Numbered from the stretch's first letter, positions 9,315 to 27,424 are shown. The stretch is 64,000 nucleotides of DNA from Deltaproteobacteria bacterium (GCA_016936575.1 JAFGXQ010000133.1:3843-67842); one strand, 5' to 3'. Notes: generated by a model not told the origin, from the sequence alone. Numbers and translations: made by a program.

Positions 9315-10358
9315 ATGACGATAAAAAGAACGCTGAAAGATATTGCAGCTACCATCAAGAACATCGAACAGCAGTTCGGTGAAGGTACGGTGATGCGTAT
9401 GGGAGATACGAAGGGGATCAGCAATGTGCCCTGTGTATCATCCGGATCGCTTTCCATTGATTTGGCCCTGAAAGTGGGTGGGTATCCCAAGGGGCGGCTG
9501 GTGGAAATTTACGGGCCGGAATCATCTGGAAAAACAACGCTGACATTGCATGCTATTGCAAAAGCGCAGCAGGCCGGCGGAACATGTGCATTTATCGATG
9601 CGGAGCATGCGCTCGATCCCACGTATGCGAAGAAGTTAGGGGTGCATGTGGACGAACTGCTGATTTCACAACCGGATCATGGGGAGCAGGCGCTGGCCAT
9701 CACCCAGGCCCTGCTAAATTCAGGAAATATCGATTTGGTGGTGGTGGATTCGGTGGCGGCACTGGTTCCCAAAGCGGAACTGGAAGGAAATATCGGTGAT
9801 CATCACGTGGGGGTTCAAGCGCGTATGATGTCTCAGGCGATGCGTATGCTGACCGGTGCTGCGAATAAAAACAGCGCTACAGTCATTTTCATCAATCAGA
9901 CACGCCAGAAAATCGGCGTGATGTTCGGTAGCCCCGAAACCACAACCGGTGGGACCGCGCTTAAATTTTTTGCGTCGGTTCGTTTGGATGTTCGTCGTAT
10001 CGGCACCATCAAAGGTAGTGGGGAGGGCGACCCCATCGGTGCAAGAACAAAAGTGAAGATTATCAAAAATAAACTGGCGCCGCCTTTTAGAACCGCCGAA
10101 TTCGACATTATTTACGGAGAGGGCATCAGTCGTGTTCATGAGTTGGTGGAGTTGGGCGAGCAGGCGGAGTTGGTCACCAAGTCAGGCACCTGGTATTCGT
10201 ATGGGAAAGTGCGGCTGGGTCAGGGAAAGGAAAAAGCGTGCGCCTACCTGCGAGACAATCCGAATATTGCCGATGAGATTGAGGCGCAACTGAAAAGTGC
10301 CGAGAACGTGAAAGAGGAAGTGACAGAAAAGACATCTGACAAGCAAACTGCTGCATGA
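9315..10358 (+). CDS. recA: Recombinase RecA
   Basis: 347 aa. Canonical RecA throughout ([36 protein letters not shown]...[10 protein letters not shown]...IFINQ.R.KIGVMFG). Confidence 0.95.
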
Positions 10359-10392: not shown

Positions 10393-11430
10393 TCAGGTTT
10401 GGATGCGGAAAAGCTGGGCGCCCATCAGAATGAAGTCGCCGTTGTTCAGCGAGGTTTCGCCGGTGAGCTTGAGATAGCTGCCGTTGGAACTTCCCAGATC
10501 GGTGAGGAAGAATTTCCCGCTCTCGGAATGGATGCGCATGTGAACGCCCGAAATGTAGCCGTCTTCGGGGAACAGTATGTTTCCACGTTCGCGCCCGCAG
10601 ATCACGCCTTCTCCACCGATGGGAAACGCATTGCCGAGTCGTCCTTTGCCAACGATAAGCGAGATTCTTCCCCACAGGCCCTCAATGGGAGACCCCATGC
10701 GTTTGGTTCCGTCGGGACCGTTTGCGCCTTTGTCGATGGCTTCAAAAAGAATCAGCTCTTGGCCCATGCGGAATACATTACCGGATTTGATTTCGACCGG
10801 TTCATTGGGCATGATTTTTTTGAACACACCATTTAAACTACCCTCGTCGCGACAGACAATTTGAGCGCCTTGCGCACGAAACACCGCATGTCGAGGCGAA
10901 AGATAGGCATCGGTTTCAAAGAAGCCGCCGGCATCTCGGCCGACAGCCACATCCGTATCGGGAATTTCTACAATACCGCCTTCGCTGCCGTCCGGTTGAA
11001 TCAGAATCAACGATGCCGGTTGGCCGGAGCTGACCGGGGCAGAAGACTGAGGCGCCGGTGCCGCACCCCCGATGGGGGTTCCGCATGCGCCGCAAAAGGC
11101 GAATCCGGGTGGAATGTTGGCGCCGCAATTGGCACAGGCGGACCCAGTGTTGACGGGCGCCGAAGCACGTGCGGGCGATGGATCGACAGCCGCAGGCGTC
11201 AGATCTTCGGTCGGGGGAGGAGACGGCGTGGTCGCCATATTGGCGTTGGCCGAAACATTGGCCTGACCGGTGTCTGCCGCCGAGGCGGGGGCAACGGGTT
11301 CAGCGGCGGCAATGCCGGCCGGCGGAGTTGCCGAAGAGGGAGCCTCGGCGCGCGGCAGATCAGAACCGCATCCCAGACAGAACTTGTAATGGTCCTGGTT
11401 TTCTTTTGAGCATTTCGGACAAACAATCAC
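10393..11430 (-). CDS. Zinc-ribbon + tandem-FHA domain protein
   Basis: N-terminal CPKC...CLGC ribbon, a Pro/Ala-rich linker, a second Cys cluster (CANCG...CGACG), then two FHA domains (GR..x..SxxHA and SGxH.RI....F.TDLGSSNGSYL). Confidence 0.7.
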   Translation of the reverse strand: MIVCPKCSKENQDHYKFCLGCGSDLPRAEAPSSATPPAGIAAAEPVAPASAADTGQANVSANANMATTPSPPPTEDLTPAAVDPSPARASAPVNTGSACANCGANIPPGFAFCGACGTPIGGAAPAPQSSAPVSSGQPASLILIQPDGSEGGIVEIPDTDVAVGRDAGGFFETDAYLSPRHAVFRAQGAQIVCRDEGSLNGVFKKIMPNEPVEIKSGNVFRMGQELILFEAIDKGANGPDGTKRMGSPIEGLWGRISLIVGKGRLGNAFPIGGEGVICGRERGNILFPEDGYISGVHMRIHSESGKFFLTDLGSSNGSYLKLTGETSLNNGDFILMGAQLFRIQT

Positions 11431-11441
11431 CTTCGGACCTC

Positions 11442-12410
11442 CTATTGGGTTATCTCAACTCTAAGAAGTTGACGACCGAGGAACAGATAGTCGCCGTGGA
11501 CCAGTTCTGTTTCTTTGTTTACTTTCAGAAATGTACCATTTTTACTGTTTAAATCGGTCACCGCAATTCCATCTGCTGTGGATTCGATTTGAACGTGTTT
11601 ACCGGAGATAAACGGATCTGCCGGGAAGTTCATATCGCAATCTTCGCGACCGATGGTAATCTTGGTTTCTTTGGGATTAACGATCATCCCATCGCCGCCC
11701 CCTTCCAGAATCTGCACCACCCGGAACGAACCGGCGGTGAACGGACTCGAGAAAAAGTAGGTGCCGTCGGGCTCCGCGCCTTGATCGACCGGCGCCACTT
11801 CTTCAACGCGGAACACCTGCTCGCCCACCATGAAAACGGAGCCCGGCGCTACCACTTTGGGCTGAGTGATGGCGATGAAAATTCCGTTCAGGCTGTTCTG
11901 GTCCTGAACGAAGATTTTGTCGTCCTGATATACAAAGTTGGCGTGGGCGGGAGACAGCCATTGATCGTCCTGAAATACGATTTCGCCCTGGGTGCGTCCG
12001 GCCAGGTGTTCGGTGGAGTTGAGGTGATAACTCATTCCATCCACACCTTCTCCCTTGATGAGGATTAATTTCGCTTTGCCAGGGGATTGCAGATCGCCAA
12101 AATAATTGGGATCTTTGATGACGTTGCTTTCGAGCGAATTACCACATTTTCCGCAGAATTTGTGTCCCGCAGGAACCGGGGTGTAGCACTCGCCGCAAAC
12201 TAGATGCCGTGCCTGCTCCATAGATTCATCCTCTTTCCCGTCTTGGGCTGCGTCTTGCGGCCCTGATTTTTCATTTGATTGCGCAGAAGTCGCTGTATCA
12301 GTAGTTGCGGCGGAAAGCTCAAGACGACTGCCGCATTCGCTGCACTCCCGGCTCTCAACCGTGTTCAACTGGTCACAATTTCCGCAAACAATGCCCGCTT
12401 TAACGGTCAT
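11442..12410 (-). CDS. Zinc-ribbon + tandem-FHA domain protein (paralogue of the upstream gene)
   Basis: Same architecture as 10393-11430: CGNC...CSEC and CGEC...CGKC ribbons, then two FHA domains (SPAHANF..., ISGKHVQIE..VTDLNSKNGTFL). Start set at ATG 12410, where a membrane-free N-terminus (MTVKAGIVCGNC) begins. Confidence 0.65.
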   Translation of the reverse strand: MTVKAGIVCGNCDQLNTVESRECSECGSRLELSAATTDTATSAQSNEKSGPQDAAQDGKEDESMEQARHLVCGECYTPVPAGHKFCGKCGNSLESNVIKDPNYFGDLQSPGKAKLILIKGEGVDGMSYHLNSTEHLAGRTQGEIVFQDDQWLSPAHANFVYQDDKIFVQDQNSLNGIFIAITQPKVVAPGSVFMVGEQVFRVEEVAPVDQGAEPDGTYFFSSPFTAGSFRVVQILEGGGDGMIVNPKETKITIGREDCDMNFPADPFISGKHVQIESTADGIAVTDLNSKNGTFLKVNKETELVHGDYLFLGRQLLRVEITQ

Positions 12411-12591
12411 AAATAATACTCGTACTCCAAAAAAGTGTGAGGCTGATATTTTTAGCCCAATCGTTTTTATTATCAACTATTTTGTATGAAAACGCAGCGC
12501 GGTCAATATGGACGCATGATCAGTAGTCGGTGAAAAATGTGACATATTTTCCATTGATTATGAGAAATGGGAACGATACTGTTTTTTCATC

Positions 12592-13614
12592 ATGAGGGGA
12601 AATAGTTCATTTGTTGAAATTTTGTCCGAAAACAGACTCCAGTGTCTTCTGTGTCCTCATAGATGTGTGCTGAAAGAGGGAGATGTCGGTCGATGCGGCA
12701 CGCGGAAGCATCATAAACAGCGTCTGCAGGTATTGACCCACGGAAGATTCAGTGCGGTGGCAGTGGATCCGGTTGAAAAAAAGCCCCTCAGCCATTATCG
12801 GCCCGGTACGTTGACCTATTCGCTGGGAACCGCCGGGTGCAACATGATTTGTCCGTTCTGCCAGAATGCATCGCTGTCTCAGTGCCCTGCGACCGGCGGA
12901 TTTGACGCGACGGAAATTCCGTATACACCGCCGGAACATGTGGTGCGCGATGCGCTGAATCGGCGATGTCAGTCGATTTCGTTCACATATTCAGAGCCTA
13001 TACTCGCCCTTGAATACGCGCTTGAAATCGCGCCGCTGGCGCAGGCGGCGCAGTTGGATTTGATATTTGTTACAAACGGTCAGGTGACAGAGGCGCCGCT
13101 GCATGACCTTTGCCGTATTCTCCGTGCGGCCAACGTGGATTTGAAAAGTTTTCAGCCAACGATCTATAAACGGACGCTGGGGGGAGAGTTGGACACCACG
13201 TTGAACACGATTCGGCAGCTACATCAGGCAGGGGTATGGGTGGAGGTGACTACGCTGATTGTGCCCGGAATGAATGATTCGGATGAGGAATTGACAAATA
13301 TTGCTGAATTTATCGCAGGGGTAGCTCCGAGTATTCCCTGGCATGTATCGCGATTTCATCCGGCGTACAAATCGCGAAATACGGGGCCCACAGCGGCTGA
13401 CGTGATTTATCGCGCGCTGGAAATCGGTGCGTCGGCCGGGCTTGAATACGTGTATGCGGGGAATCTGCCCGGGCAAAGAGGCGAAAATACCTATTGCCCA
13501 AATTGTAAAGACGTGGTTGTGGATAGAACTGGATATCGGGTTCGCGCTGTGCGAACCCAACATGGAGCCTGTGCTCGTTGTGGGTACGGCATTGCCGGAG
13601 TTGGATTTTCCTGA
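12592..13614 (+). CDS. amrS: AmmeMemoRadiSam-system radical SAM enzyme (PFL-activase-like)
   Basis: N-terminus matches AmrS (LQCLLCPHRCVLKEGDVGRCGTR...), with a CxxxCxxC radical-SAM cluster (CNMICPFCQN) and a C-terminal Cys pair. Confidence 0.75.
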   Translation: MRGNSSFVEILSENRLQCLLCPHRCVLKEGDVGRCGTRKHHKQRLQVLTHGRFSAVAVDPVEKKPLSHYRPGTLTYSLGTAGCNMICPFCQNASLSQCPATGGFDATEIPYTPPEHVVRDALNRRCQSISFTYSEPILALEYALEIAPLAQAAQLDLIFVTNGQVTEAPLHDLCRILRAANVDLKSFQPTIYKRTLGGELDTTLNTIRQLHQAGVWVEVTTLIVPGMNDSDEELTNIAEFIAGVAPSIPWHVSRFHPAYKSRNTGPTAADVIYRALEIGASAGLEYVYAGNLPGQRGENTYCPNCKDVVVDRTGYRVRAVRTQHGACARCGYGIAGVGFS

Positions 13615-13616
13615 AG

Positions 13617-14393
13617 ATGACAGAAAAAATTACCATTGGAACGGTGGGGTATCCCATCAAAAAAAATAAAATGCTGCATGATGTGGATGTGGTTGAGCTG
13701 ACGGAATCCCGCCATATTCCACCGGGGAAAAAGGCGGCCCGTCACATTCGGGATGAGTTGCCCGCCGCCCTGGACTGCACGGTTCAGATTTCGCGATACT
13801 TTGTATCTACGCCGCCGCAGGGCGCCACCCTGAAGGGCGACATTGCCAATTACGGACAATTTCAGATAACCGACGAAAGCATGAGTCTGTGGAAGCGGCA
13901 GGTGGAGTTTGCCGGTGCGCTCAATGCGAGAGCGCTGGTGCTGGTGACACCGTCGTCGATTACGCCTTCCGGCGCGAACGTAAAAGCGATGGCCGAATTT
14001 TTTGATGCGGTGGATCGCGGCGGGCTGCCGATTGTATGGGAAGCGCACGGCCCCTGGGAATCCAGTCAGGTGCATCAGTTCGCGGCGGCACATCAGTTGA
14101 TTCCGGCGGTCGATCCGTTGCGCGATGCGGTTCCTGAGGGCTCCCTGGCGTATTTTCGGTTCGGGGCGTTCGCGGCCACCGGCTCCCGCATGGGGGTTTA
14201 CGAGTTGGAACAGATTGTGGCGGCTGCGCTGGATTCGTCTGCAGATGAAGTGTTCTGTCTGTTTGAGACCCACCGCGCCCTTGACGACGCGCGCAATCTG
14301 AAAAAAGTGCTGGCCGAATTCGGCAGCGATGATTTCGGTGATTTCGAGTACGATTTTGATGACGGCGACGATGAAGATGAGGAGTTTGTATGA
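13617..14393 (+). CDS. DUF72 (YecE-like) family protein with an acidic C-terminal tail
   Basis: Starts MTEKITIGTVGYP, which resembles the DUF72 IRIGTSGW opening; about 258 aa; C-terminus DFGDFEYDFDDGDDEDEEFV. Start chosen at ATG 13617 within ORF 13578-14393. Confidence 0.5.
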   Translation: MTEKITIGTVGYPIKKNKMLHDVDVVELTESRHIPPGKKAARHIRDELPAALDCTVQISRYFVSTPPQGATLKGDIANYGQFQITDESMSLWKRQVEFAGALNARALVLVTPSSITPSGANVKAMAEFFDAVDRGGLPIVWEAHGPWESSQVHQFAAAHQLIPAVDPLRDAVPEGSLAYFRFGAFAATGSRMGVYELEQIVAAALDSSADEVFCLFETHRALDDARNLKKVLAEFGSDDFGDFEYDFDDGDDEDEEFV

Positions 14394-15330
14394 ATTTCGA
14401 ATCGGGGGGGACGCTTTGAATAGTGACACTTCATATTCGATTGAGCCGGAAACCCCTGTTCATTTAGCGCCTTCTCTCGTAATCATCACCGGTTTGTCGG
14501 GCGCAGGAAAATCGACGGCCATGAGGGTGTTCGACGATTTGGGATATTATTGTCTCGATAATTTGCCGCCGGCGTTGATTCTCGATTTTTTTCGATTGTA
14601 CATGCAGGGGACCGGCACCAAAAAGGGCGTTGCCATTGCCAGTGATATGCGGTCCGGCGACTTGTTTGACGATTTTCAGAGCACGGTGATGCGGCTGGAA
14701 GCGGAAGCCATCCATTTTGCCATTGTGTATCTCGACTGCGATACCGAAGTGCTGATGAAGCGGTTCAAGGAAGTTCGCCGCTCTCATCCATTGGAGACTC
14801 AGTATTCACTTCGGCGTGCAATTGTGGAAGAGCGAAAGCAATTGGCTGCCACATTGGCGTTGGCAACAGATGTTATCGACACCACGCACATGGCAGCCGC
14901 CCAACTTCGTCAGACCGTGCTGCAGACGGTGGTTCAGCGTGATGCGGCCGATGTATCAATGATAAAAGTGTTGAGTTTCGGGTTCAAATACGGCGCACCG
15001 CGGGATGCGGATTTTGTGTTTGATGTTCGGTTTTTGCCGAATCCGTTTTACAAAGAGGAGCTGCGCCCCCTGAGCGGTGAGGATGATCCGGTGTACACAT
15101 ATGTGATGAATCAGGACGCGGCCAACCGTTTTTTTGATTCTATCATTCAGCTGCTCGACCCAACGTTTGATGCGTTTGTGAATGTGGGAAAGTTTTCTAT
15201 TAATATCGCGTTCGGTTGCACCGGGGGCCGTCATCGTTCGGTTGCATTTGCAAAACGGTTGTCCATGTATTATCGCAAGCGGGGAAAAGATGTCCAAACC
15301 TATCATCGCGACATAACGCATCCTTTGTAA
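14377..15330 (+). CDS. rapZ: RNase adapter protein RapZ (P-loop NTPase YhbJ family)
   Basis: Walker A LVIITGLSGAGKSTA near the N-terminus, and the RapZ C-terminal region (CTGGRHRSVAFAKRL). The start is uncertain: it overlaps the DUF72 gene end, and the ATG at 14377 or a TTG near 14418 are both possible. Confidence 0.75.
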   Translation: MRSLYEFRIGGDALNSDTSYSIEPETPVHLAPSLVIITGLSGAGKSTAMRVFDDLGYYCLDNLPPALILDFFRLYMQGTGTKKGVAIASDMRSGDLFDDFQSTVMRLEAEAIHFAIVYLDCDTEVLMKRFKEVRRSHPLETQYSLRRAIVEERKQLAATLALATDVIDTTHMAAAQLRQTVLQTVVQRDAADVSMIKVLSFGFKYGAPRDADFVFDVRFLPNPFYKEELRPLSGEDDPVYTYVMNQDAANRFFDSIIQLLDPTFDAFVNVGKFSINIAFGCTGGRHRSVAFAKRLSMYYRKRGKDVQTYHRDITHPL

Positions 15331-15370
15331 CTGACGATGGCAGCGAACCCGCGCGGTAGTAAAATGAGCT

Positions 15371-17260
15371 ATGCTTCAAATTAACGAGATAAATTATTTT
15401 ATAGGTGGTCGTGAAATTTTCGCGAAAGCGTCTGCGAGAGTCCCCAAGGGGAAACGGGTCGGATTGGTGGGCGAGAACGGATGCGGCAAAACCACATTGT
15501 TGCGCCTGATCACCGGGGAGCTGGAGCTGGACAGCGGGCGAATCGACGTGCAGAAAAAGTGTGTGGTGGGCACGGTGGCGCAGGATGCGCCGGCCGGAAA
15601 CGCGACTCCGCTGGAAACGGTTCTGGCTGCGGACGTCGAACGGATGGGATTGTTGCAGGCCTCTGCCACTGAAACCGACCATGAAAAAATAGCATATATT
15701 CATGAGCGACTTACTGATATTGACGCCCACAGCGCGCCGTCGCGGGCGGCGACGATTCTTGCGGGTCTGGGTTTCAGCGAAGAGATGCAGCAGCGTCCTC
15801 TTTCGCAATTTTCGGGCGGATGGCGAATGCGTGTGGCATTGGCCGGAGCGCTGTTTGCCGAGCCGGATTTATTGTTGCTCGATGAGCCCACCAACCACCT
15901 CGATTTGGAATCCATCATGTGGCTGGAGAACTATCTGCGACAGTATCCGCATACGTTACTGGTGGTCAGTCACGATCGCGATATGCTGAACGCCATTGTG
16001 GATAACATTCTGTTGGTCAAACAGGGAACGCTCACCATGTACAGCGGCAATTTTGATGCGTATGTGAAAGCGGAAGCCGAAAAAGAAGCATTGGAAAAAG
16101 CGACAGCGGCCAAACAGGAAGCGGCACGGGCGCATTTGCAGTCGTTTGTGGATCGGTTCAAAGCCAAAGCCACCAAGGCGAAACAGGCGCAGAGCCGAAT
16201 GAAAGCCCTCGAAAAAATGGGTCCCGTCACCCGGACTACATCCTCGGGGATGCACATTCATTTTCGGTTTCCCGCTCCCGTCGACCATCCGTCTCCGCTG
16301 ATTAAGCTCGATGCGGTGCATGCGGGATATGTACCCGGGCAGCCGGTTTTGTCGGATTTGAATTTAAGTGTCTATAAAGACGATCGGATTGCACTTCTGG
16401 GTGCCAACGGAAATGGAAAAAGTACGTTGGCCAAATTGTTGTCCAACAATCTTTCGCCCATGAGCGGAGCATTGGTTCCGGCGCAGAAACTGGTGGTCGG
16501 GTACTTTGCTCAGGATCATCTGGATCAGCTCGATGCGGGCATTACTGCGCTGGAACAGGTGGATAGGGCCATGCCGCTGGCGTCACCGAATGAAGTGCGC
16601 AGCTGGCTGGGGCGATTCGGTTTCGGACAGGAGCGAGCTGAAGTGCAGGTGCAGAATTTGTCCGGCGGTGAAAAAACGCGGTTGGCATTGTCGCTGGTAG
16701 CGCTGCAGCGCCCCAATTTAATGATATTGGACGAGCCCACCAACCATCTCGATATGGATTCGAGAAGCGCGTTGGTGGAGGGGTTGAACGAGTTTGACGG
16801 CGCGATCATTCTGATTTCTCATGACCGGCGATTGATTGAAACCACGTGTGAACAATTGTGGCTGGTGGAAAACGGCGCATGCACGCAGTATTTCGGTGAT
16901 ATTGATGATTATCGGAAGTTATTGCTTTCCAACCGAGGCGGCGGTTCAAAGTCGGAAGAACTGGAAGATAACAAAGAGAAGGTCAGCAAAAAAGATGCTC
17001 GGCGGGATGCGGCACAGAATCGGGCCCGGCTGGCACCGCTGAAAAAAGCGGCCCAGGTCGCGGAGAATCAGGTAGAAACATTGACCGCAGAAAAAGCGGA
17101 TTTACAGGAACAATTGGCGGATCCGTCCATTTACGAGGGGCCGCCGGAAACTATCGCATCGCTCAATGCACGGTTGAAGGAAGTGACAGAGGCGTTGGAC
17201 ATCGCAGAAGAAGAATGGCTTGTCACGCTGGATGAACTCGAATCCGCGATGGTGGAATAA
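15371..17260 (+). CDS. ABC-F family ATPase (two ABC domains, no transmembrane domain; EttA/Uup/YheS-like translation factor)
   Basis: Two Walker A motifs (GENGCGKTTLL, GANGNGKSTL), two ABC signatures (LSGGWRMRVAL, LSGGEKTRLAL), an inter-domain linker, and a C-terminal coiled-coil/K-rich tail. Confidence 0.85.
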   Translation: MLQINEINYFIGGREIFAKASARVPKGKRVGLVGENGCGKTTLLRLITGELELDSGRIDVQKKCVVGTVAQDAPAGNATPLETVLAADVERMGLLQASATETDHEKIAYIHERLTDIDAHSAPSRAATILAGLGFSEEMQQRPLSQFSGGWRMRVALAGALFAEPDLLLLDEPTNHLDLESIMWLENYLRQYPHTLLVVSHDRDMLNAIVDNILLVKQGTLTMYSGNFDAYVKAEAEKEALEKATAAKQEAARAHLQSFVDRFKAKATKAKQAQSRMKALEKMGPVTRTTSSGMHIHFRFPAPVDHPSPLIKLDAVHAGYVPGQPVLSDLNLSVYKDDRIALLGANGNGKSTLAKLLSNNLSPMSGALVPAQKLVVGYFAQDHLDQLDAGITALEQVDRAMPLASPNEVRSWLGRFGFGQERAEVQVQNLSGGEKTRLALSLVALQRPNLMILDEPTNHLDMDSRSALVEGLNEFDGAIILISHDRRLIETTCEQLWLVENGACTQYFGDIDDYRKLLLSNRGGGSKSEELEDNKEKVSKKDARRDAAQNRARLAPLKKAAQVAENQVETLTAEKADLQEQLADPSIYEGPPETIASLNARLKEVTEALDIAEEEWLVTLDELESAMVE

Positions 17261-17277: not shown

Positions 17278-20211
17278 GTGGATTTTTCGGATTTTCGTTC
17301 CAGAGCAATCTCAGAAGGAAAGCGTTACGGAAAAGACGAATACGTGTTTGTGCGTGAGTTTGCTCAGAATGCGCGGGATGCAGGTGCCTCGCGGATTGTA
17401 GTGAACACAGAGTACAAAGGCGGTGAGCTGCTGGTCGCATTTGTGGATAACGGCGAGGGTATGAGCTTTGTACACGCCAGGGAATATCTGTTCACGTTGT
17501 ACGCCTCAAGCAAAGAGGAGGAAATGGCCAGTGCCGGTCAATTCGGTGTGGGCTTCTGGTCCATTCTGTTGTTTTCTCCCGATCGCATCGTCATTCATTC
17601 CAACACAACGCTGGAGAGCTGGGGCGTGGAGTTCAATCAGGCGCTGGATGGAGAACGCCGAGTAGCGCCGAGTCTTTCGGGGCGGGGAACCAGCGTGATG
17701 GCGTATAAAATTATCGCTCCCAAAGCGGCGGCGGCGGCTGTAGCCGAAATCGAAACGGCGTTGATGCGGTATTGCCGATTTTTGCGCCGAAATGATCGAT
17801 CGGCGAGCCCGTTGGAAGTGCGGTTCAACGGCCGGCGGATAGATGGTCCGCTGACGCTGGACGGAGAGTGTGCATCGACCTTTGAATTTGCCGATGTGCA
17901 GGGCGCAGTGGCACTTGGAAAAAGCCCCAAAGTGAATCTATATGTGCGCGGACTGCCGGTGTGGATGGGTACGTCGCTTTCGGAACTGCAGTACGGAGCA
18001 TCTCCGGAGGTGCAGGTTTCATATCCGCAGGGGCTGGCCCCCATGTACCTGCTGAACGGAAATAAATTAAGCGTTACGCTGGACAGACGGTCGGTGTTTG
18101 ATGACACGGCACTGCAACGGGTACGCCGCATTGCAAACCGGGAAATGCGAAAACTGGTGGCCGGGTATCTGGACCGTATCGCACCGGGAACCTGGCGCAG
18201 CCGCCTGGAATTCGCGTTTTCAATGTTTGTTGAAGATTTCGGTCTGTATTTTTTGCGTCGGTTTATTCCGGTGTGGATCACGCTGCTGTTGATAACCGGT
18301 ATCGGCGCGGCATTCTGGTTGGTTTTTCCCGACGTGGTCGATCACGTTTTTCACGGTGCCGATGGGGATGAAGACGGCCCGCTGGAGGTCATCGCATTCG
18401 GCGGACGCGGGTTGGGATCGTCCGGGGAATACGAGCAGGCAACCACTCAGGTAGGCGAAGGCCGCGCGGTGGAACTTACGTATCGCCCTGCAAATGAAGC
18501 ACACTATTTTCGAACCCAGGTGGCGGAAATTCTGGATACCCGAAGCGGCGCGCGATCGGGAATACTGACACCGTATCGAATTCCGGCCGACTATCGGTGT
18601 AAAAAAAATTGTGTGCATATTGAAGTGGGATTGGACGACAAACCGGGTGTGTATCATTTGCCGGTCCCCACCGGGTACTATATTGAAAATCGCAGTTTAG
18701 CTTTGGCATCGGGCCAGCAAGGTGAACTGGTGCGGTCCGTGAAAGATGATTGGCTGTTCATTCAGAAGCAGGCGCCGGCGGGGGGCGGAAAGCTGTCGTA
18801 CACGACCGGTCGCGCAACGACTTCGGTACATAATGCGACGGCATTGTTGCAGGTACCGGATGTTCATTTGCCATCTTCATATGCGGAGGCGGTGAAACAG
18901 GCCGAAAAATTCAAACGCAAACAGAAACAGGTTGACCAACTGTCGTTGTTTGTGGAGGCCTCTATCGCATATGATACATCGGAAAGCACTGCGGCTGCGT
19001 ACCAGCGCTTCTTCGGCGCTTCGGTGCCGGGAAACTGGTTTGAATTTGTGTTTCAATTGGGGAAGGGCGACTGTGATGTGAAAAACATTGTACTGATGGT
19101 GTTGCTCCGGCGTATGGGAATTCCCGCCCGGTTGGCCGTCGGCTATGTGGGAGAAGACGGGGAAACGCGGGCGGGCAAACATGCGTGGGTAGAATATTAC
19201 GATAACGGATGGCAGATTTCAGACGCTACCGGGCAGGAAATTGAAGAAACGCAAACCGTTTCTGCAACATCGTCGGCGTCATCCGAAGCGCAGACGGATG
19301 TGCAACCGGATACATCTGCCGACGCGTCGGAATCGGCTCCTTCCAGTGATCACACCGCCGCAGCTACAGCTGCGTCCACGCCAATCGACATTCAAACTGC
19401 GTCGTCTGTGCAATCAATTGTTCGCCGATGGTGGCCGGGATTTGCTACGTTGCTATTTTTGCCGTTTTTGGTTTGGCTGGTGGTTCGTCGTCGAAAGTGT
19501 AAGCCGATGCAATCGCCGTCGCGCAAGCAGGAGACCCTGGCAGCGCAGATGCTGCAGGCGGCACTCGAAGACAAAAAAATGCATCTGCGCGGTAGTGGAT
19601 TATTTTCGCGACAGCTGATTCCCACCTGGCGGGAAAATTGTCGAATATCGATGAATTATGCACTGTCTTTGAGCAAGCGTAAAAAATTGTTTTATGCGCG
19701 GCATTACAGTCCATTGGTGGCGCGAATCGTGTCGGCGGGAACACCGGTGGTGGACGTTTCGAACGCCGCGTTTGTCGCGGTGGTCGGACGCCTTGCAGGA
19801 AGTGTAGGCATTGACGAGTTGGATGTTTTGTCTCCGGTGCAGATTACAGCGATGCGCGATGAATCGTCTGCGGCAAGTCGTGTGATTACGGAGGTACTGG
19901 AGATTTCAAAGCGGTTGGGTATGCCGGACAATGGAATAGTGCCTTGCCGCGGAGATATGGGCGCATTGTTTAAAGAAATGGATATTTCCGGGTTGCCGGT
20001 TTCGTGGAAAAAGGGCATTCCGCAGCGTTTTATTGCGCTTTCGACAACAGATAAAGATGCCTGGAATCGGTTGGAACGGCTCGGCGGTGATGCGCGCGGC
20101 GCCGCAGTGTTGGTGCTGGACCGAATGGCGGTTCATTGCGCCGTATTTCGCACCAGTCGAAATGCGCTGCGCGAGATGCTGGCCTCGTACGAACAGGAGA
20201 GTCGGGATTGA
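17278..20211 (+). CDS. Two-pass membrane protein: N-terminal GHKL (Bergerat-fold) ATPase fused to a transglutaminase-like Cys-His-Asp domain, plus an uncharacterised C-terminal cytoplasmic domain
   Basis: GTG start directly after an in-frame TAG. GHKL motifs: N-box EFAQNARDAGA (E-x3-NA-x-DA), G1 VDNGEGM, G2 GQFGVGFWS. Hydrophobic helices at about aa 336-358 (FIPVWITLLLITGIGAAFWLVF) and about aa 720-742 (FATLLFLPFLVWLVV). Between them lies a transglutaminase core: GKGDCDVKNIVLMVLLRRMGIPARLAVGY ... GKHAWVEYY ... GWQISDATG (C, H and D in canonical spacing). Only 18 nt separate it from the ABC-F gene stop. Confidence 0.7.
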   Translation: MDFSDFRSRAISEGKRYGKDEYVFVREFAQNARDAGASRIVVNTEYKGGELLVAFVDNGEGMSFVHAREYLFTLYASSKEEEMASAGQFGVGFWSILLFSPDRIVIHSNTTLESWGVEFNQALDGERRVAPSLSGRGTSVMAYKIIAPKAAAAAVAEIETALMRYCRFLRRNDRSASPLEVRFNGRRIDGPLTLDGECASTFEFADVQGAVALGKSPKVNLYVRGLPVWMGTSLSELQYGASPEVQVSYPQGLAPMYLLNGNKLSVTLDRRSVFDDTALQRVRRIANREMRKLVAGYLDRIAPGTWRSRLEFAFSMFVEDFGLYFLRRFIPVWITLLLITGIGAAFWLVFPDVVDHVFHGADGDEDGPLEVIAFGGRGLGSSGEYEQATTQVGEGRAVELTYRPANEAHYFRTQVAEILDTRSGARSGILTPYRIPADYRCKKNCVHIEVGLDDKPGVYHLPVPTGYYIENRSLALASGQQGELVRSVKDDWLFIQKQAPAGGGKLSYTTGRATTSVHNATALLQVPDVHLPSSYAEAVKQAEKFKRKQKQVDQLSLFVEASIAYDTSESTAAAYQRFFGASVPGNWFEFVFQLGKGDCDVKNIVLMVLLRRMGIPARLAVGYVGEDGETRAGKHAWVEYYDNGWQISDATGQEIEETQTVSATSSASSEAQTDVQPDTSADASESAPSSDHTAAATAASTPIDIQTASSVQSIVRRWWPGFATLLFLPFLVWLVVRRRKCKPMQSPSRKQETLAAQMLQAALEDKKMHLRGSGLFSRQLIPTWRENCRISMNYALSLSKRKKLFYARHYSPLVARIVSAGTPVVDVSNAAFVAVVGRLAGSVGIDELDVLSPVQITAMRDESSAASRVITEVLEISKRLGMPDNGIVPCRGDMGALFKEMDISGLPVSWKKGIPQRFIALSTTDKDAWNRLERLGGDARGAAVLVLDRMAVHCAVFRTSRNALREMLASYEQESRD

Positions 20212-21416
20212 CTCAGTCGCTGTTGAAAATCGATGTGGATCGCGAGATTCAAAAATTAACCCGGAATCGGTTCAAATCGTCGACGGAATGGGCGGTGGCG
20301 TTGTGTCAATACGCAATGGGACGTGACTGCACGTCGCTTTCATTGCAATTGGATGCGCGCAGTTTTGAGTTGCGTTATCGTGGAACATCGGTCGGTATCA
20401 CTGACCTGGAGCGGCTGTGCGTTATTTTTGATGAGCAACAATCGCCGGACGCCAGGCATCGTGCCATTGTTGCATTGGAAGAGGGCGATTCGTTTGATTT
20501 ACTGTGCGCGTTTTATCTGAAGAACGCCAAAGTCACGATTGTGAGTGCGACGGGATCGGCAGTTGTCGCGCCCCGTCGTCGACCGGTGCGCCGAACTGAA
20601 ACGGGTTCATTAAAAACGGTGATTGCCATTCGGTCGGGGAAGCTGAAACGCGGCCCCCTGGAGAAGGCATTGCGCACAGCCTGTCGGTTTTCGCCGGTAC
20701 CGGTCATGTTGAATGACAAGCGAATTTCAAGCGGCCACAAGCTGGAAAACTGTTTTGCCCAGCGTGCGTTTGAATGGCGCGGTGTTCGTGGCGTTGTGGG
20801 AATTCCATTGGAGAGTGATTTTGTCCGTCAGGTAACGCTGAAGCACGGTATTACGGTGAAAGACTCGTTGAGGCAGCCGGGATTCGGGTTGTTGTATCAT
20901 ACAATTATCGATAGTCCGAAAAGTGCGCTGTCAAGTGCCGATTTGGATGAAGTGCGAAATGTCGTGCGCTCGTTATATATGGAGCTTGGCAAATATATTG
21001 AACAGTTGGAATCCGCGCAGCGGCAGCGAGCCTTGGAAGTGCTGTTTATCCGGTATCGGGAAACGCAAGATGTCAGCTATGTGAAGGGCGTGCAGGCATT
21101 TGAGCGGGTGGATGGAAATCGTTTCACGGTTGAAACGCTGCGCCGGTTGGCGTCGGACGGGCCCGTATACGGCATTCATCGCGGAACATCTACCGAGTCA
21201 TGGAATCTGGCGGGACGTCAGGTTTTCTATTTGGATGCCAGGCAGTGGAATTTTCTGGAGAAGGAATTGGGCATTGAAATCACTTGGCCCTCCCCGCTTT
21301 CGCGAAGCGGCAACTGGCGGCTGAAAAAAAAGGCCACCAATCAGAACGGCGCGAAAAAAGACAAACCGTTTTCAAAAGAGATTCGCACGGCTGCGGAGCA
21401 GCTGATTTTATTTTGA
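20208..21416 (+). CDS. Hypothetical protein translationally coupled to the GHKL-transglutaminase gene
   Basis: A TTG start overlaps the upstream TGA as aTTGA (a 4-nt overlap); 402 aa with no motif I can recognise. The ORF is open from 20136. Confidence 0.45.
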   Translation: MTQSLLKIDVDREIQKLTRNRFKSSTEWAVALCQYAMGRDCTSLSLQLDARSFELRYRGTSVGITDLERLCVIFDEQQSPDARHRAIVALEEGDSFDLLCAFYLKNAKVTIVSATGSAVVAPRRRPVRRTETGSLKTVIAIRSGKLKRGPLEKALRTACRFSPVPVMLNDKRISSGHKLENCFAQRAFEWRGVRGVVGIPLESDFVRQVTLKHGITVKDSLRQPGFGLLYHTIIDSPKSALSSADLDEVRNVVRSLYMELGKYIEQLESAQRQRALEVLFIRYRETQDVSYVKGVQAFERVDGNRFTVETLRRLASDGPVYGIHRGTSTESWNLAGRQVFYLDARQWNFLEKELGIEITWPSPLSRSGNWRLKKKATNQNGAKKDKPFSKEIRTAAEQLILF

Positions 21417-24044: not shown

Positions 24045-25238
24045 TCAGTCTCTGGATACCGTGAACAGATCGGATTTTCCTTGACCGTAGAGTGAGAGGG
24101 TTGCGGTCACCAAGGGCGGAAAATAAAATCCTTCATTTTGAAAGTGTTCAAAGAAACACGAGTTGCCGGCGTCGGTAAAAGTAAAGGTTTCTTCCGAATG
24201 GGTTTCTGGCGAAACCATTGCCATTCCGTCTTCATCAATAAGGGTGCTGTTATTCGTATAACGGATGGACTCAAGCCGTCCGTCTGCTGTGAAAGCGTAT
24301 TCCGCCAGGGTGGAGTCGTATTCTTTTTCATTAGCGGGGAGGTCGCTGTCATCGCCCCGGTAACTATACGTGTTCAGAATTCGATTATTGCTCCAGGTGT
24401 AGTCGGTGTAGCTGACCTGGTTCCAGGTATAGTCTGTAAATCTGGTGTAGCCCGATTCGTCGATATGGCTTTCCAACACCAGGGGCGTGAAATCGGTTGC
24501 TTTTAGAAGGTGTCCATCCGCGTCATACGTGTACAAATGGCGTTCCTGGGGGAGTTCAATGGCTTCGAGTTCCGCCGCGGACGGCAGGTTGCTGGTCTCT
24601 ATTGTTCCGCTGATATCCGGATTGAAGTCGAATGTGCTTTCTTGCGTCACTCTTCCGTTTTCGTCATAACGAAATTTGGTGATTCGATGTCTTTCGACTT
24701 CGACATCGGAGTCCAGCCGTCCCCGACCATACACGATTGTGTGTAACCGAGTGCCCTCATAGGCATATTCCTGAAACGTAACAACAGAAGTCGTTGGGGA
24801 GTCTTCCACGATGCGTCGAGCGGGGAACGGGAAGTCGTCATTGTACTGGTAAAAAATGGTGTAGTGATACCCATTATCGCTACTGGTAGTGCGATATTCT
24901 GCAAGACGGTATAACGCATCGTACGTGTAGGTGGTCTCGGTCCAATCGTCGGAAGTACCACTGGAAGTGTATGTTTGTTTGGTAGGCAGCCCCAGTTCAT
25001 TGTAGGTAAACTCTTTGCCGTCAAGGCGTGCCGGTGCGTACCCGAACTGACACGGCTTGGAAAGAATGCCCGTTCCTTTCACCGCACTGTCGGTGTCAGG
25101 GTCCGGTTCATTGTTGCCGGCATTGGATGCGCTATTTGTATCCGGCGTGCTGTCGTCGTCTGATTCTCCGCATGCAGCGATTCCAAGCAGCAGCGCGCAA
25201 AGCGTTACCACTTTGTAAAATGTAACCGTATGAATCAT
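24045..25238 (-). CDS. YD/RHS-repeat-containing lipoprotein
   Basis: Lipobox LLGIAACGE, an Asp/Ser-rich linker, and repeated YD-type motifs (YTYDALYRL, YTYDADGHLL, YSYRGDD). Confidence 0.55.
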   Translation of the reverse strand: MIHTVTFYKVVTLCALLLGIAACGESDDDSTPDTNSASNAGNNEPDPDTDSAVKGTGILSKPCQFGYAPARLDGKEFTYNELGLPTKQTYTSSGTSDDWTETTYTYDALYRLAEYRTTSSDNGYHYTIFYQYNDDFPFPARRIVEDSPTTSVVTFQEYAYEGTRLHTIVYGRGRLDSDVEVERHRITKFRYDENGRVTQESTFDFNPDISGTIETSNLPSAAELEAIELPQERHLYTYDADGHLLKATDFTPLVLESHIDESGYTRFTDYTWNQVSYTDYTWSNNRILNTYSYRGDDSDLPANEKEYDSTLAEYAFTADGRLESIRYTNNSTLIDEDGMAMVSPETHSEETFTFTDAGNSCFFEHFQNEGFYFPPLVTATLSLYGQGKSDLFTVSRD

Positions 25239-25483
25239 CGGGAAACCTTTCTGGTCGGCGCATCAATGGCGATTCGTTTTCAAGTAACCATCGACGGTGT
25301 CGCAGCTATTATGCCAAAACCACGACGCGCCACAAAGATGTAATTGTTTTGTATATTGTATAGTTAGCGATCGATTTGGTTCTTCGACGTGTGCCAGGTT
25401 GTGCCAAGCGGGTGTCGTTCGAGCGTTGCGGTGGATATCCGGTGTCGGAAGCAGCGACACGTTCCGCTGCAAATTGAATTGAG

Positions 25484-26410
25484 CTACTCGACAGCCACCG
25501 AAAAGTTTTGCACAACCATGGTACCATTGCCGGACCAGATTTCGTTGCCGAATTCCACTTCGGCGATGTACGCGTCGGCAGGTAGATGCTCGTTTGCCAC
25601 CAGGTAAGAAACAAACGGCATGAGGTCGATTTGTCCACTCCACTCACCGCTGGTCTGTACAAACGCCAGGTAAGGGAAATCGTTCCAGGTGGTGTTTTTG
25701 TAAAAATTGTAGGACTGCGCACCAATTGCAATGTCGTCTTCCATCAGCTGAGCGGACGGAGTTTTTGTTCCATCGAGCCACACCATGATTTCTCCAACGA
25801 TGGTATCAGAATATATTTCGTCCGGCGCGGTGACCCAGACATCGAAGGCGGTGTTGTACAAGCCGTCAGCCTGGAGTTCCTTCTCGAATGAAATCGCCAG
25901 CGACGACAGGGATTGAATTTGGCGGGGCAGCACCTCCGGTCCGGACGATTCCAGGCTCCAGGGGTTCCAGCCGAAGCCCACTCGCGGGTACGACGGGAAT
26001 TGACTCTCTCCTTCGAGATGCCATTCCCAACCGAACACACCCGACTGAACCGTGTCGGAAAACACACATTGCGAATAGCCGGTAAATGATGACGACTCAT
26101 ATCCCCATACATTATTGTGAATCGCGAAACCGTCATCGAGGACGGCAACGGCATAGTCGTCACAAAGTGTTTCGTACGTACTTTCTGCGGTCGCACTATC
26201 TGCAGAGTCAGTATCTGAGGGTTGCGAGTGGTTCGAATCGCTGCTCGTTTCGGTTGATTCATCCGGCACGCCGGAGTCGGAATCGCGGGTCTGGCTGGAG
26301 TTGTTGTTTTCACAGGCGCAAAAAACAACCAGACCGGAGAACAACAACGCAGCCGAAGTGAGTGAACAGAACGTTGAAAGACAGGAGTGAGCGGGAAATG
26401 GACGCTTCAT
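25484..26410 (-). CDS. Secreted glycoside hydrolase family 12 endoglucanase
   Basis: GH12 signatures: HNNVWG (NNxWG), nucleophile region GEIMVWL (compare ELMIWL), and acid/base region EVEFGNEIW (compare FGTEPF). Signal peptide/lipobox and a Ser/Asp-rich linker at the N-terminus. Confidence 0.7.
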   Translation of the reverse strand: MKRPFPAHSCLSTFCSLTSAALLFSGLVVFCACENNNSSQTRDSDSGVPDESTETSSDSNHSQPSDTDSADSATAESTYETLCDDYAVAVLDDGFAIHNNVWGYESSSFTGYSQCVFSDTVQSGVFGWEWHLEGESQFPSYPRVGFGWNPWSLESSGPEVLPRQIQSLSSLAISFEKELQADGLYNTAFDVWVTAPDEIYSDTIVGEIMVWLDGTKTPSAQLMEDDIAIGAQSYNFYKNTTWNDFPYLAFVQTSGEWSGQIDLMPFVSYLVANEHLPADAYIAEVEFGNEIWSGNGTMVVQNFSVAVE

Positions 26411-26511
26411 TTGAGACACCTTTCTTGCAATGACCGCGCAAGTAACGGAATCAGTATACCGTTAAAGTGGGAATTAATTGAAAAAAAGGCGAATCGAAAA
26501 CGCTTCGGTGA

Positions 26512-27267
26512 CTACTTGCTGAATCCGGGAAGTTTGGAAAGGTCGGGCACCAGAACGATGTTGATGCGGCGGTTGTTCCCGCGGCCTTCCTTGGTGTCAT
26601 TGGTGTCGGAGGGCATAAACTCGCCGTAGCTGGCGGCACTGAGAGATTCACCGGGAACGCCGGCTTCGATCATTGCGTCCACAACTCCCTGAGCGCGCGC
26701 GGCGGCGAGTTCCCAGTTGTTTTTGAAATGACGGTTTTTAATGGGGTTGTTGTCGGTATGGCCTTCCACCTGAAATCGTTTTTTCAAGGTGGCCAGAACT
26801 GTCGCCACTTCTTTGATGGCTTCGATACCTTCCTTGGATAGGTTCGCTTTGCCCGGTTTAAACAGAATGTCTGTGGGCAGCTGCAGCACCAGGCGGCCGT
26901 CAATCATCTGTACTTTGAGCTTACCGGCATCAATCAGGCTTTTAAACTGTTTGAGCAGATTGTTCATTTCGGCAGCGCGGGCGTCGGCATCGGCTTTAAG
27001 CGCCGCCAACTCAGCCAGCGCTTTTTTCAGCTCTGCCGAAGACGATTGGCTGAGTCCTTCCAGCGCGGATGCCTGCCGGGTCAACTCTTCGATTTTCATC
27101 TCCAGCTCTGAAATCTTACTGTTCAGGTCATCGATTTGCCCTTGTTTACCTTTGATATCCTGCTGGGCGGCGTCATACTGATCGCTGAGTTCCACATACT
27201 TGCTTTTGGATACGCAGCCGACTGCCGCAATGGACACAACGGCCAGAACGATCATTAATTTGTTCAT
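26512..27267 (-). CDS. OmpA/MotB-domain lipoprotein with a long coiled-coil
   Basis: Start MNKLMIVLAVVSIAAVGCVSK (lipobox), a heptad-rich coiled-coil region, and a C-terminal OmpA-like peptidoglycan-binding domain (FQVEGHTDN...NRRINIVL). The longer listed ORF (to 27744) overlaps the kinase gene and is rejected. Confidence 0.75.
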   Translation of the reverse strand: MNKLMIVLAVVSIAAVGCVSKSKYVELSDQYDAAQQDIKGKQGQIDDLNSKISELEMKIEELTRQASALEGLSQSSSAELKKALAELAALKADADARAAEMNNLLKQFKSLIDAGKLKVQMIDGRLVLQLPTDILFKPGKANLSKEGIEAIKEVATVLATLKKRFQVEGHTDNNPIKNRHFKNNWELAAARAQGVVDAMIEAGVPGESLSAASYGEFMPSDTNDTKEGRGNNRRINIVLVPDLSKLPGFSK

Positions 27268-27424
27268 ATCTTTCCTCTCTTTCGAAGGTTTGTTTTTTGG
27301 GTAACGTACAATATACCTACTGAATTCCATATTTTTGGTCAAGGTGAACAAAGGACTCCAATGCGGGTTGATGAAACCAACGATGCTTCGGAACAGAAAA
27401 GAAATCGTCGCTGAAAACACAATT

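What the first reader, a model, noticed from the sequence alone, without database searches (positions are those of the whole stretch)
17278..21416. Coupled two-gene module: membrane GHKL ATPase-transglutaminase fusion plus a 402-aa unknown partner
This is my strongest candidate for an undescribed system. The 977-aa product has a complete Bergerat ATP-binding fold at its N-terminus (E-x3-NAxDA N-box, DNGEGM G1, GQFGVGFWS G2), as in Hsp90/MutL/MORC/histidine kinases. It then has two predicted transmembrane helices. Between them, and therefore predicted to face the periplasm, is a transglutaminase-like papain-fold domain with an intact Cys-His-Asp triad (GDCDVKNIV...GKHAWVEYY...WQISDATG). A C-terminal cytoplasmic region of about 230 aa has no motif I recognise. 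The stop codon overlaps the TTG start of a second ORF (aTTGA) encoding 402 aa with no family I can place. The pair sits 18 nt after an ABC-F ATPase and directly upstream of a hybrid histidine kinase. I do not know of a described family combining a cytoplasmic GHKL ATPase with an extracytoplasmic transglutaminase-like protease across the membrane. The layout suggests ATP-driven control of a periplasmic protein-modifying or cleaving activity, which could serve signalling, envelope remodelling or a conflict/defence role.
Basis: partly seen in the sequence, partly recalled or inferred. Interest (0 to 1): 0.85.

Follow-up and report, generated by a model that had tools for sequence, protein, structure and literature searches.

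The report
Membrane GHKL ATPase-transglutaminase with pseudo-ATPase partner
This is a real, strictly conserved but uncharacterised two-gene unit in which an Hsp90/MutL-type ATPase inside the cell is joined through the membrane to a TgpA-like transglutaminase outside it and is paired with a catalytically dead copy of its own cytoplasmic part, suggesting a previously undescribed way of using ATP to control an enzyme in the periplasm.

Summary
ORF1 (17278-20211, 977 aa) has an intact GHKL ATPase, two transmembrane helices, a periplasmic transglutaminase domain with a Cys-His-Asp triad, and a roughly 240-aa cytoplasmic C-terminal domain. ORF2 (20208-21416, 402 aa) starts inside ORF1's stop codon.

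New findings:
1. At least 379 species genomes encode a relative of ORF1. Among the 80 best-matching loci, most are Myxococcota and Acidobacteriota.
2. A homologue of ORF2 lies immediately downstream in 74 of 74 testable loci, with a 4-nt overlap in 58. No other neighbouring gene is conserved.
5. The setting is a core chromosomal region. Adjacency to the hybrid kinase is not conserved, and there are no plasmid or phage homologues and no full-length PADLOC match.

Best reading, which is inferred and untested: an Hsp90/MutL-like heterodimeric ATP clamp whose movement passes through the two helices and gates the periplasmic enzyme. It would be analogous to FtsEX-hydrolase and MoxR-DUF58-TgpA systems. 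I found no published description. I rate it a new variant of a known kind.

The parts
17278..20211 (+). ORF1: 977-aa membrane protein. Order of parts: GHKL ATPase and middle domain, TM1, periplasmic TgpA-like transglutaminase, TM2, cytoplasmic C-terminal domain.
   Evidence: The same architecture is present in the 120 listed of 254 database relatives.
17278..18192 (+). Cytoplasmic GHKL ATPase with transducer/middle domain (aa 1-305). N-box E27/N31/D34, G1 D57/G59/G61, G2 G87/G90/G92, and an invariant R270.
18271..18327 (+). TM1 (aa 332-350). In the model it is part of one continuous helix spanning 306-349.
   Evidence: Hydropathy conserved across the family. AF2 secondary structure. K+R count is 3.1 before the helix and 1.6 after.
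18403..19236 (+). Periplasmic domain (aa ~376-653): a beta-rich subdomain with the conserved Cys pair C441/C445, followed by the transglutaminase core (aa 546-649, nt 18913-19224) with triad C599/H635/D649.
19237..19416 (+). Ser/Thr/Ala-rich disordered linker (aa 654-713) between the transglutaminase domain and TM2.
   Evidence: pLDDT below 50. Composition, and length varying from 6 to 200 aa across the family.
19429..19485 (+). TM2 (aa 718-736), followed by RRRKCK on the cytoplasmic side.
   Evidence: K+R count is 2.0 before the helix and 3.9 after.
19495..20208 (+). Cytoplasmic C-terminal alpha/beta domain (aa 740-977). It belongs to no known sequence family and is homologous to the C-terminal domain of long partner proteins.
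   Evidence: No Pfam or PDB hit. hhalign against the partner C-terminal domain: probability 83-90%, E 8.7e-6 and 1.5e-6. Controls gave E 0.15-0.53.
20208..20211 (+). 4-nt start/stop overlap (TTGA) that couples translation of ORF2 to ORF1.
   Evidence: An NTGA overlap occurs in 58 of 74 related loci.
20208..21416 (+). ORF2: 402-aa soluble partner. It consists of a pseudo-GHKL and middle domain (aa ~1-290, nt 20208-21077) plus a truncated C-terminal domain (aa 291-402). Best-conserved positions are in the N-terminal segment (L6, I8, D9, E13, L17) and at R83/A86.
21388..21414 (+). Terminator-like hairpin and T-run at the end of ORF2. It may mark the end of the transcription unit, before the hybrid kinase.
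   Evidence: Pattern scan only. The number of sites found across the region is no higher than chance.

Best explanation
The two genes encode the subunits of a membrane-embedded GHKL clamp.

Shown by computation:
- ORF1 is an active Hsp90/MORC/MutL-class ATPase (GHKL plus middle domain). A long helix leads from it into TM1. A TgpA-type transglutaminase or cysteine-peptidase domain is displayed in the periplasm. TM2 then returns the chain to a cytoplasmic C-terminal domain.
- ORF2 is a soluble paralogue of ORF1's cytoplasmic parts only. It has lost the Mg-binding Asn and the ATP-lid glycines.

Inferred:
- The two proteins form a 1:1 heterodimer, as MutL-alpha and Hsp90-type dimers do. The homologous C-terminal domains hold the dimer together permanently.
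- ATP binding to ORF1 drives association of the N-terminal domains with the pseudo-GHKL. The partner's conserved N-terminal segment and Arg83 motif may contact ORF1's ATP site in trans.
- This closing and opening moves TM1 relative to TM2 and so switches the periplasmic enzyme on or off, or repositions it. The compartment outside the membrane has no ATP of its own.
- The substrate is unknown. Chromosomal core context and wide conservation across many species (copy number per genome not checked) favour a housekeeping role in the cell envelope, such as protein or cell-wall cross-linking, trimming or deamidation.
For: - Both active sites are invariant in 83 of 83 family members.
- Fold assignments rest on confident models, with pLDDT 83.7 and 87.4.
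- The partner is homologous to ORF1's N-terminal module (E 6.8e-12) and to its C-terminal domain (E 1.5e-6, with clean controls).
- Four of 36 partner proteins still hit HATPase_c_3 directly, yet Asn did not appear at the Mg-binding position among the eight residue types tallied for 69 partners.
- The partner lies immediately downstream in 74 of 74 loci, with a 4-nt overlap in 58. No third gene is conserved.
- TM helices, the positive-inside pattern and a conserved Cys pair place the transglutaminase domain outside the cytoplasm. The homologous TgpA domain has been shown experimentally to be periplasmic and to have transglutaminase activity in vitro (PMC3507681).
- One continuous helix, 306-349, joins the middle domain to TM1.
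- Precedents for ATPases controlling extracytoplasmic papain-fold enzymes: FtsEX-PcsB (PMC3735124 and PMC11627006) and MoxR-DUF58-transglutaminase clusters (PMC12067865).
Against: - Nothing here tests a physical interaction, ATPase activity, or coupling across the membrane. No complex was modelled.
- ORF1 could form homodimers, with the partner acting only as a regulator.
- The C-terminal domain fold is unassigned, so its role in dimerisation rests on analogy with Hsp90 and MutL.
- The disordered linker before TM2, 6-200 aa long across the family, would transmit force poorly through TM2. Any coupling may therefore run mainly through TM1.
- The window's clade has lost the last ~110 aa of the partner's C-terminal domain, so that subdomain is dispensable.
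- Substrate and physiological role are unknown.
Confidence: 0.5

Rival explanations
1. Independent functions on one polypeptide. The GHKL/pseudo-GHKL pair would act as a membrane-tethered Hsp90- or MORC-like clamp on a cytoplasmic client (protein or DNA). The periplasmic transglutaminase would work constitutively, with the fusion serving only to co-localise the two.
For: All characterised GHKL clamps of this class act on cytoplasmic or nuclear clients; the top structural matches are TRAP1, GRP94, MORC2, topoisomerase II and MutL. The long flexible linker before TM2 argues against tight mechanical coupling.
Against: The fusion and its two-TM topology are invariant in every family member examined, across at least two phyla. 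This is hard to explain without functional coupling. No DNA-binding or client-binding domain was detected.
Confidence: 0.17
2. Outside-in signalling. The periplasmic domain would sense or covalently capture an envelope ligand, and that event would modulate the cytoplasmic GHKL clamp, which would pass the signal to cytoplasmic targets.
For: The membrane topology resembles that of sensor kinases. A hybrid histidine kinase lies 170 nt downstream in the window.
Against: There is no HisKA/DHp phospho-acceptor domain, and the fold belongs to the Hsp90/MutL class with a middle domain rather than to kinases. The neighbouring kinase is not conserved even in the closest relatives. The catalytic triad is invariant, which indicates an enzyme rather than a binding module.
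Confidence: 0.13
3. Anti-phage or conflict system. The GHKL module would be the sensor or motor, as in Tiamat TmtA or paraMORC systems, and the transglutaminase-like peptidase would be the effector.
For: The GHKL region gives weak PADLOC hits to TmtA models (best E 1.6e-8, residues 13-96 only). Transglutaminase-like peptidases are effectors in some conflict systems (PMC3710099; PMC8195603).
Against: The hits cover only the shared ATP-binding motifs of 1400-1650-aa proteins. The partner has no PADLOC hit. The flanks are housekeeping genes such as recA, rapZ, ABC-F, alaS and lon. Composition does not differ from the surroundings. No homologue was found in 72,556 plasmids or 50,697 phage records. 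The effector would face the periplasm, away from phage replication.
Confidence: 0.07
4. The partner is a negative regulator rather than an obligate subunit. ORF1 would form homodimers as the active clamp, and the pseudo-GHKL would compete for the dimer interface to keep it off until released.
For: Pseudo-enzyme paralogues often act as decoys. The partner keeps its interface-type conservation, in the N-terminal segment and the R83 motif, while losing its catalytic residues.
Against: The 4-nt overlap in 58 of 74 loci and the shared C-terminal domain point to equimolar co-assembly. Current data cannot separate this from the main model.
Confidence: 0.13

Closest known systems
TgpA (PA2873) of Pseudomonas aeruginosa and the MoxR-DUF58-transglutaminase gene clusters
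   Different: TgpA has a five- to six-helix DUF3488 membrane domain. Its associated ATPase is a separate AAA+ protein (MoxR) that works with a DUF58 adaptor. Here the ATPase is a GHKL fused directly to the enzyme, there are only two TM helices, and neither DUF3488 nor DUF4129 was detected.
Hsp90/TRAP1/HtpG, MutL (including the MutL-alpha heterodimer), MORC and sacsin: GHKL clamps with a middle or transducer domain
   Different: Whole-protein scores lie far below family cut-offs: HSP90 family 31.7 bits against 455, and MutL 25.4 against 180. No MutL endonuclease domain or Hsp90 C-terminal domain was detected. A TM-periplasmic-TM insert sits between the middle and C-terminal domains. I know of no member of these families with such an insert.
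FtsEX with PcsB, RipC or EnvC-amidases
   Same: The logic is the same: a cytoplasmic ATPase drives a conformational change through membrane helices to control an extracytoplasmic papain-fold (CHAP or NlpC/P60) hydrolase (PMC3735124 and PMC11627006).
   Different: The ATPase class is unrelated (ABC rather than GHKL). In FtsEX systems the hydrolase is a separate protein, whereas here it is fused. The similarity is functional only, with no homology.
Tiamat TmtA (PADLOC)
   Same: A sacsin/HATPase_c_3-type ATP-binding region (best E 1.6e-8).
   Different: Only about 85 residues match in proteins of 1400-1650 aa. TmtA has no transglutaminase domain and no comparable partner, and the genomic context here is not defence-like.

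Membership tests
GHKL (Bergerat-fold) ATPase superfamily - ORF1 | N-box (E-x3-N-x2-D), G1 box (DxGxG), G2 box (GxxGxG), and the Bergerat alpha/beta sandwich fold | tested here: met
GHKL superfamily, catalytically competent - ORF2 partner | Mg-coordinating Asn and glycine-rich ATP lid | tested here: not met
Hsp90/HtpG family | Whole-protein match to the family model, covering N-terminal, middle and C-terminal dimerisation domains | tested here: not met
   NCBIfam HSP90 family protein scores 31.7 bits against a cut-off of 455, and HtpG scores 19.1 against 371. Only the N-terminal and middle domain folds are shared.
MutL | Whole-protein match including the C-terminal dimerisation/endonuclease domain | tested here: not met
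   TIGR00585 scores 25.4 bits against a cut-off of 180. The C-terminal domain has no Pfam or PDB sequence match.
Sacsin N-terminal ATP-binding-like domain (NF047352) | Score above the curated cut-off | tested here: inconclusive
Transglutaminase-like (papain-fold) superfamily | Cys-His-Asp triad on the Transglut_core fold | tested here: met
TgpA family (DUF3488-Transglut_core-DUF4129) | N-terminal multi-helix DUF3488 membrane domain, with a MoxR/DUF58 operon context | tested here: not met
   Pfam finds no DUF3488 or DUF4129 in ORF1 or in its C-terminal domain. There are two TM helices only. No MoxR or DUF58 gene is conserved nearby. Only the periplasmic domain is homologous.
Sensor histidine kinase | HisKA/DHp phospho-acceptor domain next to the HATPase domain | tested here: not met
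Known anti-phage defence systems (PADLOC) | Full-length match to a system protein, with the system's other genes nearby | tested here: not met
   Only residues 13-96 match TmtA models. The partner has no hit. No defence genes are conserved nearby.
Heterodimeric clamp (physical ORF1-ORF2 complex) | Direct interaction between the two proteins, with ATP-dependent closure of the N-terminal domains | not testable with these tools
   Only indirect support is available: paralogy, strict co-occurrence, and the start/stop overlap. No multimer prediction was available.

The most novel reading that the evidence does not exclude
This would be the first Hsp90/MutL-class GHKL clamp that works across a membrane. 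An active subunit and its pseudo-ATPase paralogue would convert cytoplasmic ATP binding and hydrolysis into movement of two transmembrane helices, and that movement would gate a periplasmic TgpA-like transglutaminase. It would constitute a new class of inside-out mechanotransmission machine for envelope protein or cell-wall modification in Myxococcota and Acidobacteriota.
Probability: 0.4. Interest if true: 0.78.

Novelty: new variant of a known kind. Interest (0 to 1): 0.62.

Why it matters
GHKL clamps such as Hsp90, MutL, gyrase B and MORC are textbook ATP-driven machines. As far as I know, all of them act on clients in the cytoplasm or nucleus. A membrane-spanning version with an enzymatic head in the periplasm would extend that mechanism to control across the membrane. 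It would also add a second, unrelated solution, besides ABC-type FtsEX, to the problem of regulating enzymes in a compartment that has no ATP.

The module also bears on TgpA. TgpA is critical for Pseudomonas viability, yet its physiological substrate and its link to ATPases remain unclear. An independent fusion of the same periplasmic domain to a different ATPase argues that ATP-dependent control is intrinsic to this class of enzyme.

The family has cultured hosts suitable for experiments: Nannocystis exedens, Enhygromyxa salina and Paraliomyxa miuraensis. It also offers a clean natural example of a pseudo-enzyme paralogue kept as an obligate neighbour.

Tried and rejected
- **Literature searches.** I searched GHKL + transglutaminase, HATPase + transglutaminase-like + Myxococc*, sacsin + transglutaminase, and the 2008 paraMORC/MutL survey. 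None describes this architecture.
- **PADLOC.** The only hits are at GHKL-motif level, to TmtA. I rejected these as evidence of membership.
- **C-terminal domain.** A profile search against PDB and per-member Pfam scans found nothing, so the fold stays unassigned.
- **Hybrid kinase or ABC-F as part of the system.** Rejected. Clustering ORFs from 83 loci shows only the two genes are shared, and the kinase is absent beside the pair in the closest relatives.
- **Word-indexed search with ORF2 alone.** It found only 8 relatives and would have suggested a clade-specific orphan. Synteny-guided searching of downstream frames and an exhaustive profile search (548 clusters) corrected this.
- **Antisense ORF clusters.** Apparent conserved clusters inside the two genes are shadow frames of GC-rich coding sequence, not genes.
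- **Timed-out alignment.** One MAFFT run timed out and was repeated with a faster setting.
- **Promoter and terminator scan.** The counts are no higher than chance. Only the position of the best hairpin, at the end of ORF2, is noted.


Full report
**1. The observation**

The ORF list gives a 977-aa frame at 17278..20211 (+, GTG start) and a downstream frame that ends at 21416. The DNA at 20205-20211 reads GATTGA. A TTG start at 20208 therefore overlaps the TGA stop of ORF1 by four bases and yields a 402-aa product beginning MTQSLLKIDV. That N-terminus matches the homologues.

Pfam places HATPase_c_3 at residues 25-104 and Transglut_core at 546-649. Both score above their curated cut-offs. NCBIfam adds a near-threshold match to the sacsin N-terminal ATP-binding-like domain, plus weak Hsp90 and MutL matches. 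The upstream gene is an ABC-F ATPase separated by a 17-nt gap, and the downstream gene is a PAS/HisKA/HATPase/receiver hybrid kinase.

Two hydrophobic segments lie at about 332-350 and 718-736. They are present throughout the family. The flanking Lys/Arg counts fit N-in/C-in: 3.1 inside against 1.6 outside at TM1, and 2.0 outside against 3.9 inside at TM2. ORF2 has codon usage typical of its neighbours.

**2. A widespread and strictly paired family**

A database search with ORF1 returned 254 relatives. All of the 120 listed are about 900-1100 aa when complete and carry the same two Pfam domains. An identical protein comes from a Deltaproteobacteria MAG.

A scan of one genome per species found at least 379 genomes that encode a relative. 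The 80 best come mostly from Myxococcota, including Polyangia, Nannocystis, Enhygromyxa and Paraliomyxa. About 19 come from Acidobacteriota (Aminicenantes, Holophagae, Thermoanaerobaculia and Vicinamibacteria), and a few carry Chrysiogenales or other labels.

All 83 recovered ORF1 homologues keep E27, N31, D34, D57, G59, G61, G87, G90, G92, R270, C599, H635 and D649. Both catalytic centres are therefore under selection.

A word-indexed search with ORF2 alone found only eight relatives. Profile searching of the frames downstream of ORF1 homologues told a different story. A homologue of ORF2 lies directly downstream in 74 of the 74 loci that have enough sequence. The overlap is 4 nt (NTGA) in 58 of them. 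An exhaustive profile search found 548 clusters at 50% identity, typically 500-540 aa long.

Clustering all ORFs from 83 loci plus the window showed that only these two genes are shared. The next real cluster occurs in 13 loci or fewer.

**3. What the partner is**

A profile-profile comparison aligns partner residues 25-291 with ORF1 residues 21-325, at 97.5% probability and E 6.8e-12. Four of 36 partner proteins hit Pfam HATPase_c_3 on their own, with a best E of 3.8e-9. The partner profile weakly matches MutL N-terminal domains in the PDB.

The position equivalent to the Mg-binding Asn tells against catalysis. Among the eight residue types tallied for 69 partners it is R, L, A, F, M, Y, W or S, with no Asn. 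The equivalent of the catalytic Glu survives in 53 of 69. The glycine-rich lid is replaced by a conserved R-H-x-A-L-x-x-L-E helix.

ORF1's cytoplasmic C-terminal domain is also homologous to the C-terminal region of the long partners. The shared tool gave probability 83% and E 8.7e-6. A local run gave probability 90% and E 1.5e-6 over 177 columns. Three controls found nothing: the reversed query gave E 0.52, ORF1's N-terminal module 0.15, and its periplasmic region 0.53.

The partner is thus a catalytically degenerate paralogue of the whole cytoplasmic part of ORF1. Put the other way, ORF1 is a partner-like protein with a TM-periplasmic-TM cassette inserted between the middle and C-terminal domains. 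In the window's clade the partner is about 110 aa shorter and lacks the second half of the C-terminal domain.

**4. What the periplasmic part is**

The TgpA domain has been shown to be exposed outside the cytoplasm and to have transglutaminase activity in vitro. TgpA is also critical for viability (PMC3507681). A conserved Cys pair, C441/C445, in the beta subdomain fits an oxidising compartment.

**5. Context**

The window around the pair carries, in order: recA, two tandem FHA/zinc-ribbon genes, a radical-SAM gene, DUF72, rapZ, ABC-F, the pair itself, the hybrid kinase, an RHS-repeat protein, a GH12 glycosidase, an OmpA-family protein and a Ser/Thr kinase. Base composition does not change across the pair.

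In the closest relatives (L004-L006) the upstream run from radical SAM through DUF72, RapZ and ABC-F to the pair is kept. What lies downstream differs. Other clades have unrelated flanks such as alaS, lon, SLT and sigma factors.

No homologue exists in the plasmid or phage collections. PADLOC matches only about 85 residues of the ATP-binding region, to Tiamat TmtA models. A terminator-like hairpin sits at the very end of ORF2, but this is a pattern match only. The kinase and ABC-F are therefore neighbours rather than components, and nothing suggests a defence island.

**6. How it most likely works (inference)**

GHKL ATPases with a middle domain act as dimeric clamps. A C-terminal domain holds the dimer together, and ATP binding closes the N-terminal domains, often with exchange of N-terminal segments. 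This is established for Hsp90, MutL and GyrB, and I state it from general knowledge. The GHKL reviews found summarise the family.

Three features here point to a 1:1 heterodimer of ORF1 with its pseudo-GHKL. The active and dead paralogues share N-terminal, middle and C-terminal domains. They are strictly co-encoded. Their translation is coupled.

The partner's best-conserved positions are not catalytic. They lie in its N-terminal segment (L6, I8, D9, E13, L17) and at R83/A86 in the former lid. That pattern is what a surface contacting ORF1's ATP site in trans would show.

Because the periplasmic cassette is inserted between the middle and C-terminal domains, closing and opening the clamp should change the relative position of TM1 and TM2. 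That in turn would alter the access or geometry of the transglutaminase head. The rigid helix into TM1 is the likeliest path for the movement, since the floppy linker before TM2 would carry force poorly.

The chemistry could be cross-linking, proteolysis or deamidation. Neither it nor the substrate can be deduced from these data.

**7. Comparison with known systems**

The periplasmic head is homologous to TgpA. However, the protein lacks TgpA's DUF3488 membrane domain and its MoxR/DUF58 partners (PMC12067865). The ATPase belongs to the GHKL superfamily but fails the whole-protein tests for Hsp90 and MutL by a wide margin.

In function, the closest analogue is FtsEX, which controls extracytoplasmic CHAP and NlpC/P60 hydrolases. 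That system uses an unrelated ATPase and a separate hydrolase protein. I found no paper describing a GHKL-transglutaminase fusion or its partner. Public annotations are generic: "ATP-binding protein", "transglutaminase domain-containing protein", [quoted passage not shown] and "hypothetical protein".

**8. Verdict**

The feature is real and the pair is a true conserved unit. Its anatomy is now largely resolved, and it appears to be undescribed. It combines known parts in a way that suggests a new use of the GHKL clamp, so I rate it a new variant of a known kind.

The structural and evolutionary statements are well supported. The mechanism is inferred, with about 0.5 confidence. Substrate and physiological role remain open. 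A defence role is unlikely.

Noticed in passing
window 20208-21416, compared with L007-L083 partner genes: The partner in the window's clade (399-419 aa: the window, P0121-P0128, L004-L006) lacks the last ~110 aa found in nearly all other partners (500-540 aa). The missing part is the second half of the C-terminal domain, which carries the R-x-H-P-x-V...D-P-x3-Y-P motif. ORF1 in the same clade keeps its full C-terminal domain.
   Followed up: partly
window 10393-11430 (-) and 11442-12476 (-): Two adjacent paralogous genes each encode zinc-ribbon and C-terminal FHA domains, next to recA (9315-10358). The same MTVKAGIVCGKCDQLN-type gene recurs at the edge of the related loci L004-L006.
   Followed up: no
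window 12592-17260; L004-L006: The upstream run of radical-SAM, DUF72, RapZ and ABC-F is syntenic with the pair in the window's closest relatives but not in other clades. The ABC-F stop lies only 17 nt before ORF1's start, so the genes may be co-transcribed in this clade.
   Followed up: partly
L026 (labelled Patescibacteria group), L060 (labelled Clostridia): These MAG contigs carry the module. In the partner-region alignment the L026 sequence is nearly the same as those of the Chrysiogenia/Chrysiogenales loci L028 and L037. The taxonomic labels probably reflect binning or labelling errors rather than true hosts.
   Followed up: no
window 17637-18281 (-) and equivalent positions in 36 loci: Long antisense ORFs inside the two genes cluster across loci. 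They are shadow frames of GC-rich coding sequence, not separate genes.
   Followed up: yes
window 24045-26419 (-): An RHS-repeat putative lipoprotein and a secreted GH12 glycoside hydrolase sit just downstream of the hybrid kinase, followed by an OmpA-family protein (26512-27744) and a Ser/Thr kinase (27425-28921).
   Followed up: no
window 1-64000: GC skew is positive from position 1 to about 40 kb, so cumulative skew rises steadily. It then flattens and turns slightly negative towards the 3' end. GC content also drops, from about 0.54 to about 0.44-0.47, after roughly 52 kb.
   Followed up: no
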